DNA of 64,000 nucleotides from Treponema sp. (GTDB taxonomy: Bacteria; Spirochaetota; Spirochaetia; Treponematales; Treponemataceae), in the NCBI GenBank assembly GCA_024682655.1, contig JAIKYZ010000027.1:1071-65070 (forward strand). Reading direction: 5' to 3'. The notes beneath the pieces are model-generated. The model saw only the letters and a program-made list of their open reading frames with translations. It searched no databases and was not told where the DNA came from. How positions within the stretch are numbered: the first letter of the stretch is position 1; each line of letters starts with the position of its first letter. Of this stretch, positions 5,877-42,031 are shown piece after piece. The position numbers were made by a program, and so were the translations under genes.

Positions 5877-7061
5877 ATGGCAAAGGAGAAGTTCGTTAGA
5901 ACTAAACCTCACATGAACGTTGGTACTATTGGTCACGTTGACCATGGTAAGACTACACTTTCTGCTGCTATCACTACATATTGTGGAAACAAATATGGTG
6001 ATAAAGTTCTTAAGTATGATGAAATTGATAACGCTCCAGAAGAGAAGGAACGTGGTATTACTATCAATACTCGTCACTTGGAATATCAGTCTGATAAGAG
6101 ACACTATGCTCATATCGACTGTCCAGGACATGCTGACTATATTAAGAACATGATTACTGGTGCTGCTCAGATGGATGGTTCTATCCTCGTAGTTTCTGCT
6201 CCAGATTCAGTTATGCCACAGACACGTGAACACTTGTTGCTCGCACGTCAGGTAGGTGTACCAAAGATCATCGTTTTCTTAAACAAAGTTGATATGGTTG
6301 ATGATCCTGATCTTCTTGAACTCGTAGTAGAAGAAGTAAAAGATACTATTAAAGAATATGGTTTCCAGGAAGACACTCCAATTATTAAGGGATCTGCTTT
6401 CAAAACATTGAACGACCCAGCTCCAGAAAACACAGCTTGTATCGAAGAACTTCTCCAGGCTATGGATACATGGTTTGATGATCCAGTTCGTGATGATCAG
6501 AAACCATTCTTGATGCCAATTGAAGACATCTTTACAATTTCAGGACGTGGTACTGTAGTAACAGGTAAGATCGAACGTGGTGTTGTAAATATGAACGATG
6601 CTGTACAGATCGTAGGTATCCGCCCAACAGCTGATACAACTGTAACAGGTATCGAAATGTTCCAGAAGACTCTTGATCAGGGTATGGCTGGTGATAACGT
6701 TGGTATCCTCCTTCGTGGTATTGAAAAGAAAGATGTTGTTCGCGGACAGGTTCTTGCTGCACCAAAATCTATCACTCCACACACAAAGTTCGAAGCTCAG
6801 ATTTACGTTCTTTCAAAGGAAGAAGGTGGACGTCACTCACCATTCTTCACTGGATATCGCCCACAGTTCTACTTCAGAACTACAGATATTACAGGAACTA
6901 TCGAACTTGAAGCTGGTACAGACATGGTAAAACCAGGTGATAACGTAAAAGTTATCGGTGAACTTATTCACCCTATCGCTATGGACGAAGGTCTTAAACT
7001 TGCTATCCGTGAAGGCGGTCACACAATCGCTTCTGGACAGGTAACAAAAATTATTGAATAG
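5877..7061 (+). CDS. tuf: elongation factor Tu
   Basis: [25 protein letters not shown]; SD AAGGAG. Confidence 0.99.
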
Positions 7062-39799: not shown

Positions 39800-39902
39800 T
39801 TAGGGATTGGAGTGGCTTGTCCCAAAGGCCTGTCCTTTGGGATGGAGCGATAGCGGAACCACGGAAAGCCCGACCGCTTTAGCGGGAAGCTCCAAATTCT
39901 AA
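39800..39902. repeat. GC-rich branched palindromic element (REP-like)
   Basis: outer stem TTAGGGATTGGAG/CTCCAAATTCTAA; inner TCCCAAAGG/CCTTTGGGA and CCGCT/AGCGG hairpins. Confidence 0.65.
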
Positions 39903-40762
39903 ATCTTGATTAAAAGTCCATCCCAAGAAGGCATTACTTTTTTAGTGAGTTTTGGAAATTCTTTGAGGTGCTTTTTGATATACTTTTTTGTTGCCCTGTG
40001 GCCGTCGTGGTGGGTCATGTGGGTAAAATAAACTTTTTCTGCCCCGATTTTTTCTGCTGTCTGCATAGCTTGTAAATAATTAAAATGGGTTGAATGTTCT
40101 TTTACGCGAAGGGCATCGATTATAAGCACTTTGAGTTGTCCGCAATTTTTGTGAATTAAATCTATAGATTCCTGGCTGATGTAAGAGCAGTCTGTTAAAT
40201 AGGCAAGGGACTGGGATTTGCCATCTTTTTCTTCGGTTAAAAGCCAGCCCAGAGTTTCTAAATGACCGTGAAGCATTGGAATTGGTGTGATTTTTGTCTG
40301 GCCCAGGTAAAAACTTTCTTTTGCTTCTATCAAATTAACTTTTGCGTGTCCACCGCCTTCTTTTGGGGTAATAAAAAAATAGGAAAAACGGTTTTCTACA
40401 TCTTTGATTGTATTTTGGTTTGTGTAGATTGGAATTGGTTCTGCATCAAAAAAGTGGGCATTTGCTTCGGTCTTCTTAAAACAAACACTGGAATAGGAAC
40501 GTAAATCGTCAATTCCGTGAAGATGGTCGGCGTGACTGTGAGTTAAGAGAAGGGCATCTATTTTATTTACCTTATATTTTAAGGCCTGCAGACGAAATTC
40601 CGGGCCTATGTCTATAAGAATGTATTTATTATCTTTTGTAGTGATGTAAACTGAAGCCCGGTTTCTCTTATCCTTTGGGTTAAGTGACCGACAGACTTTA
40701 CAATTGCAGGCAATAACCGGAACCCCGTTACTTGTACCGCTTCCTAAAACTCTTAATTGCAT
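39899..40762 (-). CDS. PhnP-like metallo-beta-lactamase-fold hydrolase
   Basis: LGSGTSNGVP, THSHADHLHGIDDLR, YLTDC, FTHMTH; start reset to MQLRVLG. Confidence 0.9.
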   Translation of the reverse strand: MQLRVLGSGTSNGVPVIACNCKVCRSLNPKDKRNRASVYITTKDNKYILIDIGPEFRLQALKYKVNKIDALLLTHSHADHLHGIDDLRSYSSVCFKKTEANAHFFDAEPIPIYTNQNTIKDVENRFSYFFITPKEGGGHAKVNLIEAKESFYLGQTKITPIPMLHGHLETLGWLLTEEKDGKSQSLAYLTDCSYISQESIDLIHKNCGQLKVLIIDALRVKEHSTHFNYLQAMQTAEKIGAEKVYFTHMTHHDGHRATKKYIKKHLKEFPKLTKKVMPSWDGLLIKI

Positions 40763-40808
40763 GGGCTTATTATACTGATATTTGTATTGATGGAAAATAC
40801 AGTTTTTT

Positions 40809-40942
40809 ACAAACGGATTTGCTCGCATCTAACGATGCTCCCTTTTTTTTGGTGAATCCCGTTAGGGATGAACAAATCCGTTTGTGATGAAACCTAAAAA
40901 AGTGAATCCCGTTAGGGATGAACAAATCCGTTTGTGATGAAA
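40809..40942. repeat. two 41-bp direct repeats (40852-40892, 40902-40942) plus one inverted variant (40809-40838)
   Basis: GTGAATCCCGTTAGGGATGAACAAATCCGTTTGTGATGAAA twice, period 50 bp; inverted copy GCATCGTTAGATGCGAGCAAATCCGTTTGT. Confidence 0.92.
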
Positions 40943-41104
40943 TTGATTTAGATTAAAGTTTGAATTTGTTTTTTGTACAGTGTGAACAAAGATTCTTTTT
41001 TGTGTAATTTAATTGTTAATGTAAATCTTCAATTCTATTCCATAATAACTAAAATTATTCTAAAATAGTTTAATAATATTAAAAATGTTTAATAGGAGGA
41101 TACT

Positions 41105-42031
41105 TTGTCTGGTGGTTCAATGTTTTTACAACAGTTAATAAATGGATTGTCGCTGGGAAGCATCTACGCTCTTATAGCACTTGGTTATACAATGGTTTAC
41201 GGTATTGTAAAACTGATCAATTTTGCTCATGGCGATGTTATGATGATAGGTGCCTATGCGGGATATTTTGTTTTAATCAAAATGTGCAAAAATGGTAATG
41301 ATATTAACGTAACAGTATTTGGAATGATTTGCGCCTTCCTTGCTGCTATGGTTTTTTGTGCTTTACTTTCTTTGTTGATTGAACGCTTTGCTTATAGACC
41401 TTTAAGAAATGCACCACGTTTAAATTCTTTAATTACAGCCATTGCGGTTGAACTTATTTTACAGAATGTAATGCGTGTACTTCCTTTTGTTGGTCCAAAC
41501 CCTAAACAGTTCCCAACTATGCCTTTACAGAACTTTGGAATTGGTGCAACAGGAGTTTCAATTTCAAATCTTCAGTTGATAGTAATTGGTTCTTCAATTG
41601 TTCTGATGGTTATTTTGAATATTGTTGTAAACTACACAAAAACCGGAAAGGCCATGCGTGCAGTTTCTTATGATATGCAGGCCGCAAGTCTTATGGGTAT
41701 CTCTGTAAATAAAACAATTGCCATTACTTTTGTAATTGGTTCTATTTTAGCAGGTGCTGGTGGAATCTTATATGCAACAGCTTATCCTCAGATTGAACCT
41801 ACAATGGGTTATATGCCTGGTCTTAAGGCCTTTGTTGCGGCAGTTTTGGGTGGAATTGGTTCTATTCCAGGTGCCATGGTTGGTGGTGTTTTACTTGGGG
41901 TTGCAGAAACTCTTACAAAAGGTTTTATTTCATCTCAGTATGCTGATGCAATTTCTTTTGGTATTTTGATTGTGATTTTACTTGTTAAACCAACAGGTAT
42001 TTTTGGCAAAAAACGTACAGTTAAAGTTTAA
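41105..42031 (+). CDS. livH: branched-chain amino acid ABC transporter permease
   Basis: LINGLSLGSIYALIALG, NFAHG, AAVLGGIGS; TTG start after AGGAGG. Confidence 0.95.
   Translation: MSGGSMFLQQLINGLSLGSIYALIALGYTMVYGIVKLINFAHGDVMMIGAYAGYFVLIKMCKNGNDINVTVFGMICAFLAAMVFCALLSLLIERFAYRPLRNAPRLNSLITAIAVELILQNVMRVLPFVGPNPKQFPTMPLQNFGIGATGVSISNLQLIVIGSSIVLMVILNIVVNYTKTGKAMRAVSYDMQAASLMGISVNKTIAITFVIGSILAGAGGILYATAYPQIEPTMGYMPGLKAFVAAVLGGIGSIPGAMVGGVLLGVAETLTKGFISSQYADAISFGILIVILLVKPTGIFGKKRTVKV

What the first reader, a model, noticed from the sequence alone, without database searches (positions are those of the whole stretch)
40809..40942. Three-copy two-hairpin motif with built-in covariation between phnP-like and liv genes
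Seen: two exact 41-bp direct repeats and one inverted copy share the pattern GA-[5-bp stem]-GTTA-[stem]-GA(A/G)-CAAA-TCCG-TTTGT. In the inverted copy the first stem is GCATC/GATGC instead of ATCCC/GGGAT: 4 of 5 pairs changed but all still pair, while both loops are invariant. That indicates selection on structure in single-stranded RNA or DNA. The 9-bp spacer rules out CRISPR. Inference: a new REP-type unit recognised by an HUH nuclease, or a tandem RNA motif serving both divergent transcripts (liv transporter; MBL hydrolase).
Basis: partly seen in the sequence, partly recalled or inferred. Interest (0 to 1): 0.65.

Follow-up and report, generated by a model that had tools for sequence, protein, structure and literature searches.

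The report
Orphan copies of cross-phylum palindromic repeat
The three hairpin motifs are real, but they do not control the neighbouring genes: they are gene-less copies of a small palindromic DNA repeat found in gut and rumen bacteria of many phyla, whose full-length form carries a small nuclease gene of unknown function.

Summary
Units lie at 40809-40840 (inverted), 40854-40885 and 40904-40935, and the variable stem differs at 4 of 5 pairs yet still pairs.

The unit is one member of a dispersed family. I found 15 copies in this genome and at least 243 units in 49 other genomes. These genomes are labelled Treponema, Neisseriaceae, Kiritimatiellae, Lentisphaerae, Verrucomicrobia, Bacteroidales and 'Myxococcales' UBA4248, and are mostly ruminant gut MAGs.

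Across 141 distinct units:
- The variable helix covaries strongly: 5 of 6 pairs show double changes.
- The 13-mer ACAAACGGATTTG, the TAAC loop and a 2x2 mismatch are fixed.

Units usually form ~77-nt inverted pairs that fold into a Y shape. In 17 loci the same two arms enclose a ~128-aa PDDEXK_3 (GxxExxY) nuclease gene. Pairs also sit in frame inside HsdS and MmeI-family genes.

Congeners with the same MBL/livH gene order have a 95-185-nt spacer without units. A liv or MBL regulatory RNA is therefore rejected.

Membership tests for REP/RAYT, Ssn/NTS, integron attC and CRISPR all failed.

Best reading: orphan, MITE/REPIN-like copies of an undescribed nuclease-associated palindromic element. No movement or enzyme activity has been shown.

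The parts
40809..40842 (+). Unit A. On the + strand it reads ACAAACGGATTTG-CTC-GCATC-TAAC-GATGC-TCCC. It is the left arm of the 77-nt inverted pair.
   Evidence: covariance model 50.8 bits, E 1.8e-12.
40843..40851 (.). T8-G linker between the two arms of the pair. With hairpin A it matches a terminator-like consensus on the + strand.
   Evidence: T-rich linkers are seen in low-GC hosts only.
40852..40885 (-). Unit B. It reads ACAAACGGATTTG...TAAC... on the - strand and GTGA-ATCCC-GTTA-GGGAT-GAA-CAAATCCGTTTGT on the + strand. It is the right arm of the pair.
   Evidence: covariance model 50.8 bits.
40809..40885 (.). Complete 77-nt inverted pair (A + linker + B). This is the commonest form of the family. 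As single-stranded DNA it is predicted to fold into a Y.
   Evidence: Fold z -6.3 and -6.9. In other genomes, 60 pairs measure 72-95 nt, with modes at 76-77 and 79-80 nt.
40902..40935 (-). Unit C, a solo unit identical to B. It is preceded by an A6 linker remnant and followed by the same 7-nt flank GATGAAA as B, so it is a local 50-nt tandem duplication.
40852..40942 (+). Two exact 41-nt direct repeats (40852-40892 and 40902-40942). These are B and C with their shared flank.
39899..40762 (-). Flanking gene: MBL-fold hydrolase (Lactamase_B_2). It is not part of the element.
41105..42031 (+). Flanking gene: branched-chain amino-acid ABC permease (LivH-like, BPD_transp_2). It is not part of the element.

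Best explanation
The three units are gene-less (non-autonomous or relic) copies of a small palindromic repeat element. They are not a regulatory device of the MBL or liv genes.

**Anatomy of the element**
- The basic arm is about 34 nt.
- It holds a fixed 13-mer, ACAAACGGATTTG.
- It then holds a hairpin with free stem sequence but obligatory pairing, a fixed TAAC/GTTA loop, and a fixed 2x2 mismatch closed by a covarying pair.
- Two arms in inverted order, joined by a ~6-18-nt linker, make the common ~77-nt form. A+B is one such pair.
- In the full-length form the linker is replaced by a ~128-aa PDDEXK_3 (GxxExxY) PD-(D/E)xK nuclease gene.

**Shown**
- The family exists, with this architecture.
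- It occurs across phyla.
- It shows insertion-type differences between homologous genes.
- It is absent from the same spacer in congeners.

**Inferred**
- The fixed parts are contacts for a protein that reads the arm as a folded single strand or a cruciform. The PDDEXK_3 nuclease is the most likely candidate.
- That interaction underlies the spread of the arms.

This genome assembly has no PDDEXK_3 gene, so its 15 units are orphans. Unit C arose by a local 50-nt tandem duplication of B. Any local effect is a by-product, for example the weak terminator-like hairpins on both strands between two divergent genes.
For: **A dispersed family**
- This genome has 15 units in 7 loci.
- Only 5 of 25 genomes of the genus carry units.
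- An exact 19-base pattern is found in at least 119 loci of species-representative genomes and at least 120 metagenome contigs.
- In total, 243 units come from 49 genomes of very different lineages.

**Residence in different hosts**
- The GC content of the variable stem tracks host GC, which ranges from 30 to 68% (rho 0.65, p 5e-7).
- The AT-rich 13-mer stays fixed across these hosts.

**Structural constraint**
- In the variable helix, 5 of 6 pairs carry double changes, 317 cells in all, with 93.7% paired. None of 500 shuffles reached this.
- Positions 15/32 and 16/31 are T.C and C.T in 124 of 141 units.

**Link to the nuclease gene**
- PDDEXK_3 is the commonest neighbouring gene: 18 of 239 loci.
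- In 9 of 17 of these genes, an arm ends 12 nt before the start codon.
- The simplest copies are arm-gene-arm.

**Insertion-type behaviour**
- The pair sits in frame between the MmeI_TRD and MmeI_C domains. Homologues L080 and P0038 lack it.
- It sits at two other sites in MmeI-family genes, between the two HsdS target-recognition domains, and in two further proteins.

**This locus**
- G001, G005, G007 and G065 keep the divergent MBL/livH pair with a 95-185-nt spacer and no unit. Here the spacer is 342 nt, and the extra block contains A, B and C.

**Context**
- Flanking-gene arrangements are -+ 16, ++ 23, -- 18 and +- 9.
- Solo units lie 12 co-directional against 9 anti-directional with the flanking genes.
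Against: - No transposition event, target-site duplication or presence/absence difference between near-identical strains was seen. The flanks only extend the palindrome (A...T).
- The closest congener is too diverged for a base-level empty site here. The MBL protein is 68% identical at best and the spacer DNA cannot be aligned.
- PDDEXK_3 is absent from this genome and from 9 of 13 carriers tested. One of these is UBA4248, which has at least 66 units.
- Three of 7 PDDEXK_3 genes in carriers have no units nearby.
- A PD-(D/E)xK nuclease alone is not a known transposase.
- No known transposase family recurs near the units.
- A host-level function of the repeats is not excluded.
Confidence: 0.7

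Rival explanations
1. The units are host-serving REP/BIME-like repeats. They would act in any orientation as transcription barriers, mRNA 3'-end stabilisers, or sites for nucleoid or topology proteins, and would be kept because they benefit the cell rather than spread selfishly.
For: - Hairpins A and C followed by T-runs match a terminator consensus: 2 found against 0.3 expected.
- Some copies in this genome sit directly after a gene with a 9-bp stem and a T9 run (C82, C139).
- The units form inverted dimers and tandem amplifications like BIMEs.
- Published REPs are mostly extragenic, and some lie inside genes (PMC3733652).
Against: - T-runs are missing in high-GC hosts.
- 16 of 66 classifiable clusters lie between divergent genes and only 9 between convergent genes.
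- Solo units show no orientation bias.
- The identical 13-mer and loop across phyla, and the in-frame copies inside enzymes, are hard to explain by a host terminator role.
- Only 5 of 25 genomes of the genus have the units.
Confidence: 0.12
2. The units are cut sites for a trans-acting, site-specific single-strand DNA nuclease, working like NTS/SRM repeats with Ssn. Their number and position would then modulate DNA uptake, recombination or defence rather than the element's own mobility.
For: - The Ssn paper shows hairpin repeats with fixed flanks that surround their own small nuclease gene and are cut only as single-stranded DNA (PMC11893778).
- Here the same design recurs with a PDDEXK_3 gene.
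- Units concentrate in restriction-modification and defence islands.
Against: - None of 243 units matches the published SRM search sequence.
- Small GIY-YIG genes occur in only 2 of 13 carriers and not beside units.
- Most carriers lack PDDEXK_3.
- No biochemical data exist for PF13366, which is listed as 'Unknown' in PMC3424549.
Confidence: 0.1
3. The pairs are attC-like recombination sites, that is, cassette boundaries used by an integron-type tyrosine recombinase on folded single strands.
For: - In several R-M operons each inserted gene (PDDEXK_3, DinD-like, hsdS) is followed by a pair, like cassettes (L063, L157).
- The loops read CTAAC/GTTAG, like integron core sites.
- Complete integron-integrase genes are present in carriers G002 and G009, a contig-truncated copy in G011, and a pseudogene in T. 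porcinum. They are absent from non-carriers G001, G006 and G018.
Against: - No unit lies next to any intI gene.
- The real attC array beside intI in G002 is a different ~70-nt repeat and gives no model hit.
- This genome and all non-Treponema carriers lack IntI.
- The outer stem is fully paired, with no unpaired spacer or extrahelical bases.
- The AAC/GTT motifs lie in inner loops, not at the outer ends.
Confidence: 0.04
4. The units are a cis-regulatory or small RNA. Candidates are a riboswitch or leader for the liv transporter or the MBL hydrolase, or a protein-sponge RNA that presents the GGA-containing loop ACGGAU.
For: - The units lie in the 342-nt spacer upstream of both genes.
- On the other strand the 13-mer reads ACAAA-CGGA-UUUGU. 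From my own knowledge this resembles CsrA/RsmE sites.
- Contig C86 has 8 tandem copies of the 13-mer followed by one hairpin and a T8 run.
Against: - No Rfam family matches.
- Units are absent upstream of 29 LivH and 29 MBL orthologues. Four of these genomes keep the same gene pair.
- There is no orientation bias relative to genes.
- Copies occur inside coding sequences.
- The 13-mer 'hairpin' has no compensatory changes.
Confidence: 0.03

Closest known systems
REP/BIME and REPIN elements with their RAYT transposase (GTAG-tagged REPs; PMC3733652)
   Same: - Short palindromic units with a fixed unpaired tag next to a hairpin.
- Usually arranged as inverted dimers, which are amplified in tandem.
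- Mostly intergenic, sometimes inside genes.
- A gene-bearing version is flanked by the same repeats.
   Different: - The tag is G(T/C)GA, partly paired, not GTAG or CGTC.
- There is an extra fixed 13-mer.
- Copy number is low: 15 here.
- No Y1/RAYT gene is flanked by units.
- The enclosed gene is a PD-(D/E)xK nuclease.
- The same arm sequence occurs across phyla, whereas REPs are usually specific to a species or genus.
Ssn (GIY-YIG) single-strand nucleases and their NTS/SRM hairpin repeats (PMC11893778)
   Same: - A small single-domain nuclease gene is framed by hairpin repeats with fixed, oriented flanks.
- Many gene-less copies lie elsewhere in the genome.
- The design occurs in several phyla.
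   Different: - The nuclease fold is different: PDDEXK_3, not GIY-YIG.
- The repeat sequence is different: 0 of 243 units fit the SRM pattern.
- Activity on the repeats is untested here.
Rickettsia palindromic elements (RPE; Ogata et al. 2000, from my own knowledge)
   Same: Small palindromic repeats that insert in frame into protein-coding genes and are translated as extra peptide segments at tolerant sites.
   Different: - RPEs are confined to Rickettsia and are not known to have a gene-carrying form.
- Here the copies in this window are intergenic.
- The in-frame cases are in other genomes, in HsdS, MmeI-family and other genes.
MITEs and their parent insertion sequences (for example Correia/NEMIS elements, from my own knowledge)
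   Same: - Size under 100 nt.
- Terminal inverted repeats of 13-17 nt.
- Patchy distribution.
- A longer form exists with the same ends.
   Different: - No target-site duplication could be identified.
- The longer form encodes no known transposase.
- Internal hairpins with covarying stems and fixed loops are not a MITE feature.
Integron attC sites
   Same: - Imperfect palindromes of about 60-140 nt between genes.
- Structure is conserved more than sequence.
- They are recognised as folded single strands and may have a branched fold.
   Different: - No linkage to intI.
- No unpaired spacer or extrahelical bases.
- The real attC sites of a congener are a different repeat.

Membership tests
REP/REPIN-RAYT | Unpaired GTAG (or CGTC) tag at one end of the palindrome | tested here: not met
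   The consensus tag on the corresponding side is G-[T/C]-G-A, and its second base pairs across the helix. Family definition taken from PMC3733652.
REP/REPIN-RAYT | A RAYT (Y1_Tnp, PF01797) gene flanked by the repeats | tested here: not met
   14 Y1_Tnp genes were found in 8 of 12 carrier genomes. None has a unit within about 1.5 kb. This genome's own copy (C145) is also unflanked.
REP/REPIN-RAYT | Units arranged as inverted dimers, with tandem amplification | tested here: met
   60 inverted pairs of 72-95 nt. Tandem arrays with periods of 52, 105, 109 and 259 nt.
Ssn/SRM repeats | Match to the published SRM search sequence HGTCWY..RNCYNB | tested here: not met
   0 of 243 units with flanks match, and nothing in the window locus matches. 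Pattern taken from PMC11893778.
Ssn/SRM repeats | A small GIY-YIG (cd10448-type) gene flanked by the repeats | tested here: not met
   Small GIY-YIG ORFs occur only in this genome (C51) and in G042. Neither contig holds a unit, and the other hits are UvrC-sized.
Integron attC | Arrays next to an integron integrase, or the same repeat as the lineage's attC sites | tested here: not met
   No model hit within the intI loci of G002, G009, G011 and T. porcinum. G002's attC repeat is a different sequence.
Integron attC | R''/R' cores at the outer ends, with an unpaired central spacer and extrahelical bases | tested here: not met
   The outer 13-17 bp are perfectly paired. The AAC/GTT motifs lie in the loops of the inner hairpins.
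CRISPR array | Identical repeats separated by unique spacers of about 25-40 nt | tested here: not met
   The gap between B and C is 9 nt. In other arrays the gaps are constant linker sequence (L048).
MITE | Short element with terminal inverted repeats | tested here: met
   Pairs of 72-95 nt with 13-17-nt inverted ends.
MITE | Target-site duplication | tested here: inconclusive
   The flanks are A/T-rich and mostly extend the palindrome (A on the left, T on the right). TA on both sides occurs in only a minority of pairs.
MITE | A longer autonomous relative with the same ends that encodes a transposase | tested here: inconclusive
   A longer form with the same arms exists and encodes PDDEXK_3. 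This is not a known transposase, and no transposase family recurs near units.
MITE | Insertion polymorphism between homologous sites | tested here: met
   MmeI-family genes occur with and without the pair at the TRD/C-domain junction, and with pairs at two other sites. The MBL/livH spacer is filled here and empty in four congeners, though only at synteny level.
Riboswitch / leader RNA | Conserved position upstream of the same gene family across species | tested here: not met
   No unit near 29 MBL orthologues or 29 LivH orthologues. No Rfam match.
Intrinsic terminator | Hairpin followed by a U-run, downstream of and co-oriented with genes | tested here: not met
   The consensus is met by units A and C locally. 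At family level the T-run is absent in GC-rich hosts, and there is no orientation or gene-end preference.

The most novel reading that the evidence does not exclude
The arm is the recognition site of the PDDEXK_3 (GxxExxY) protein. The arm consists of a fixed 13-mer plus a hairpin with a fixed GTTA loop and a tandem G.A mismatch.

On this reading, PDDEXK_3 is a structure- and sequence-specific nuclease that acts on folded single-stranded or cruciform DNA. Gene plus arms would then form a previously undescribed kind of mobile or self-propagating element. That element crosses phylum boundaries in the gut, leaves 77-nt Y-shaped gene-less copies such as the ones in this window, and can live in frame inside enzymes.
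Probability: 0.25. Interest if true: 0.8.

Novelty: new variant of a known kind. Interest (0 to 1): 0.55.

Why it matters
**For annotating this genome**
The result is negative but useful. The block between the MBL hydrolase and the liv operon is repeat DNA, not a leucine- or amino-acid-sensing RNA.

**For the field**
- The family gives an unusually clean natural mutagenesis of a nucleic-acid recognition site. In hosts from 30 to 68% GC the stem letters drift with the host, while the 13-mer, the tetraloop and a 2x2 mismatch stay fixed.
- It ties this site to PF13366, a large nuclease family listed as 'function unknown'. That makes a direct biochemical test possible: protein plus a ~34-nt arm oligonucleotide.
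- It adds a case of palindromic repeats translated in frame inside restriction-modification enzymes, at domain junctions. This may matter for how those enzymes diversify.

Tried and rejected
- **Rfam:** the locus gave only noise.
- **Intrinsic terminator or CsrA-sponge RNA:** I considered this after seeing the reverse orientation and the 8-fold 13-mer array on C86. I dropped it because the family shows no orientation or gene-end bias and the 13-mer hairpin has no covariation.
- **RAYT link:** rejected.
- **Ssn/GIY-YIG link:** rejected.
- **Integron attC:** this looked promising because IntI occurs in several Treponema carriers. The real attC array is a different repeat, and no unit lies near intI.
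- **Phage or plasmid origin:** no exact match in IMG/VR. No blastn match in the phage or plasmid collections.
- **Literature:** no paper holds either 13-mer. 'GxxExxY', 'PDDEXK_3' and 'PF13366' return only survey mentions.
- **Solved structures:** none for the PDDEXK_3 protein by sequence.
- **Strand of the structure:** non-Watson-Crick cells in the 5-bp stem are 9 G.T against 22 A.C on the ACAAAC strand.
- **Base-level empty site for this locus:** not obtainable, because the congeners are too diverged.

Full report
**1. What is in the window**

The 342-nt spacer runs from 40763 to 41104. It lies between an MBL-fold hydrolase gene (39899-40762, minus strand; Lactamase_B_2) and a LivH-type permease gene (41105-42031, plus strand; BPD_transp_2).

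It holds three copies of a ~34-nt unit:
- Unit A, 40809-40842, reads ACAAACGGATTTG-CTC-GCATC-TAAC-GATGC-TCCC on the plus strand.
- Units B (40852-40885) and C (40902-40935) are identical to each other and lie the other way round. On the plus strand they read GTGA-ATCCC-GTTA-GGGAT-GAA-CAAATCCGTTTGT.

The 41-nt exact direct repeat (40852-40892 and 40902-40942) is B and C plus a shared 7-nt flank, GATGAAA. C is therefore a local 50-nt tandem duplication.

Four of the five stem pairs differ between A and B/C, and all still pair.

**2. It is a family, and the covariation is real**

A first search of the whole assembly (2.74 Mb, 151 contigs, 34.6% GC) found the same unit at six other places, each with another stem sequence that still pairs.

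A covariance model built from 13 copies finds 15 units in 7 loci in this genome, at E from 1e-8 to 1e-12. Below these there is only noise. One noise hit lies in the window at 5888-5920, inside the start of an EF-Tu gene.

In the genus, only 5 of 25 genomes carry units, with 1, 3, 8, 15 and 16 copies.

An exact 19-base pattern, ACAAACGGATTTG-N7-CTAACG, was scanned over one genome per prokaryotic species.
- Nearly all come from ruminant gut MAGs, plus the cultured Treponema porcinum.
- The records are labelled Treponema, Spirochaetaceae, Neisseriaceae, Kiritimatiellae, Lentisphaerae, Verrucomicrobia, Bacteroidales, Alpha- and other Proteobacteria, and 'Myxococcales' UBA4248.
- UBA4248 alone has at least 66 units.

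A metagenome scan gave at least 120 more contigs. A viral-contig scan gave none.

From the genome loci I extracted 243 units in 49 genomes. With this genome's 13 distinct copies added, there are 141 distinct sequences.

On these 141 sequences:
- The helix formed by columns 14-21 and 26-33 is paired in 93.7% of cells.
- 5 of its 6 pairs carry changes on both sides, 317 cells in all.
- None of 500 shuffles, and none of the slid controls, comes near this.
- Columns 15/32 and 16/31 are T.C and C.T in 124 of 141 units. On the other strand this is a tandem G.A/A.G mismatch.
- The closing pair 14-33 switches between T-A (82 units) and C-G (39 units).
- The loop TAAC and the 13-mer are more than 90% fixed.

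The GC content of the variable stem follows the GC content of the host locus (30-68%; rho 0.65, p 5e-7). The AT-rich 13-mer does not move. Three things follow:
- The units are resident in very different hosts and are not binning artefacts.
- Stem letters are free.
- The fixed parts are under strong constraint.

**3. Architecture**

Units come mostly as inverted pairs: unit, a linker of ~6-18 nt, then a unit of a slightly different subtype in the opposite orientation. The total is 72-95 nt, most often 76-77 or 79-80 nt. A+B (40809-40885, 77 nt) is such a pair.

As single-stranded DNA it is predicted to fold into a Y. The two 13-mers form an outer stem that encloses the two small hairpins. The z score is -6.3 on one strand and -6.9 on the other.

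Variants of the 13-mer are not compensated between the two arms of a pair. The outer stem is therefore a consequence of two conserved sites in inverted order. It is not itself shown to be selected.

Pairs or single units are amplified in tandem in several genomes: 52 nt x 9, 105 nt, 109 nt x 4, and 259 nt.

**4. What travels with it**

I clustered all ORFs in the fetched loci.

The commonest neighbour is a ~128-aa protein that matches PDDEXK_3 / 'GxxExxY' (PF13366, E 1.6e-39). It is present in 18 of 239 loci. It is 75-85% identical between records labelled Bacteroidales, Treponema, Kiritimatiellae and Alphaproteobacteria.

I examined 17 such genes:
- In 9, a unit in fixed orientation ends 12 nt before the start codon.
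- The simplest copies are unit-gene-inverted unit (L321, L322, L314, L366).
- The others are unit-gene-unit-inverted unit.

The 77-nt pair is thus the same element with the gene replaced by a short linker.

The other recurrent neighbours are HsdS, MmeI-family enzymes, HsdM, Fic-like, DinD/Bro-like and RhuM-like genes. These are typical of restriction-modification and defence islands. No transposase family recurs.

The link to PDDEXK_3 is not obligatory:
- This genome has no PDDEXK_3 gene.
- 9 of 13 carriers tested also lack it.
- 3 of 7 PDDEXK_3 genes in carriers are not flanked by units.

PF13366 is listed as function unknown, with multiple transfers between divisions, in the 2012 PD-(D/E)XK survey (PMC3424549).

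**5. It behaves like an insertion**

The pair has one frame open through both arms. In that frame ACAAACGGATTTG reads KQTDL and CAAATCCGTTTG reads QIRL.

It is found in frame in several proteins:
- MmeI-family enzymes, at three different places. One place is exactly between the MmeI_TRD and MmeI_C domains. Homologues lack the insert there: L080 and P0038 read NNFPW-CNPT(D/E)EQK. One protein carries two inserts (P0018).
- HsdS, between its two target-recognition domains.
- An unassigned 981-aa protein and a 557-aa protein in other phyla.

At the locus in question, four congeners (G001, G005, G007, G065) keep the divergent MBL/livH pair. Their LivH is 85-88% identical. Their spacers are 95-185 nt and hold no unit. 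The alignment places the whole A-C block in a gap.

No unit lies near 29 MBL orthologues or 29 LivH orthologues of the genus.

**6. What it is not**

- **Not a known RNA family**.
- **Not a leader or riboswitch** (section 5).
- **Not primarily a terminator.**
  - A and C match a terminator consensus locally.
  - T-runs are absent in GC-rich hosts.
  - Of 66 classifiable clusters, 16 lie between divergent genes and only 9 between convergent genes.
  - Solo units are 12 co-directional against 9 anti-directional with the genes.
- **Not REP/RAYT.** The tag is neither GTAG nor CGTC, and none of 14 Y1_Tnp genes is flanked by units.
- **Not an Ssn/SRM repeat.** None of 243 units fits the published pattern, and small GIY-YIG genes are rare and unlinked.
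- **Not attC.**
  - Integron integrases occur in some Treponema carriers.
  - Their cassette arrays use a different ~70-nt repeat, and no unit lies there.
  - The fold lacks the unpaired spacer and extrahelical bases.
- **Not CRISPR.** The gaps are 9 nt or constant linker sequence.

**7. Most likely mechanism**

*Shown:* a conserved, structured arm; two arms enclosing either a short linker or a PDDEXK_3 gene; spread across phyla; insertion-type differences.

*Inferred:*
- The fixed loop, mismatch and 13-mer are protein contacts.
- The requirement for intrastrand pairing with free sequence means the arm is read as a hairpin, in single-stranded DNA or in an extruded cruciform.
- The enclosed nuclease is the obvious candidate reader. 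This follows the analogy with Ssn and its NTS repeats (PMC11893778) and with RAYT and REPs.

How copies are made is unknown. No target duplication, no transposase and no moving copy were seen.

The units in this window are orphans in a genome without the gene. Their local effect, if any, is incidental.

**8. Earlier notes of this scan**

Searches returned notes that describe the same kind of element: arms framing GxxExxY genes, and in-frame copies. One note, e1-4851940, covers a locus that looks the same as my L140.

I reached the PDDEXK_3 link independently, before reading them. I re-derived the architecture.

The notes pointed me to the Ssn paper. They also record later checks that price the 'new class of mobile element' reading low, at 8-20%. 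I keep that caution.

**9. Verdict**

- The locus itself is ordinary repeat DNA.
- The family is an apparently undescribed variant of the nuclease-plus-hairpin-repeat theme.
- The fixed-versus-free anatomy is very clean, and a direct experiment is available.

Noticed in passing
Own genome contig C86:4290-4455 (outside the window): Eight tandem copies of ACAA(A/G)CGGATTT, each followed by a T-run, with a period of 17-18 nt. They run into one complete unit and a T8 run, between a divergent cation-diffusion-facilitator gene and another gene. Here the 13-mer is amplified on its own, without the hairpin.
   Followed up: partly
Own genome contig C148:37245-37820 (outside the window): Four copies of a ~32-nt repeat, AAAATTAGGCG(C)GAGCGGAAGAAGACTGCAAG, spaced 142-198 nt apart between a SulP gene and polA. 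One inverted pair of units sits in the first gap. I did not determine what this second repeat is.
   Followed up: no
Own genome contig C70:70823-70994 (about 5.9 kb beyond the window's end): Four units in alternating orientation (two pairs, 93-nt period) between convergent Hsp20 and MraY-like genes. Their linkers lack T-runs.
   Followed up: partly
L247 (congener G002, contig C2:946000-966000): A complete integron integrase gene (407 bits against TIGR02249) lies next to an array of at least 7 attC-like repeats of ~70 nt, ATAACAAAGGTTCG...GTTGTTAT, spaced 0.8-2.2 kb apart. This looks like a chromosomal integron in a rumen Treponema.
   Followed up: partly
L056:3925-4045 and other UBA4248 loci: In 'Myxococcales' UBA4248 the units are often combined with runs of a 7-nt repeat (GGAATTC/GGAATGC). 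Together they form composite elements of 200-370 nt between genes, for example between the genes of an RND efflux operon (L055).
   Followed up: no
P0009-P0013 (MmeI-family proteins, around residue 640): Where L049 and P0018 carry this element in frame, other homologues carry a different ~25-aa insert, SNTRHSETSAEESNKKRDVSPSLNMTQ. This may be the translation of another palindromic repeat at the same junction.
   Followed up: no
L165 (own genome C145:52757-53503): A 248-aa protein with an N-terminal IS200-like Y1 transposase domain (PF01797) and a C-terminal extension. It is single copy and is not flanked by any repeat I could see.
   Followed up: partly
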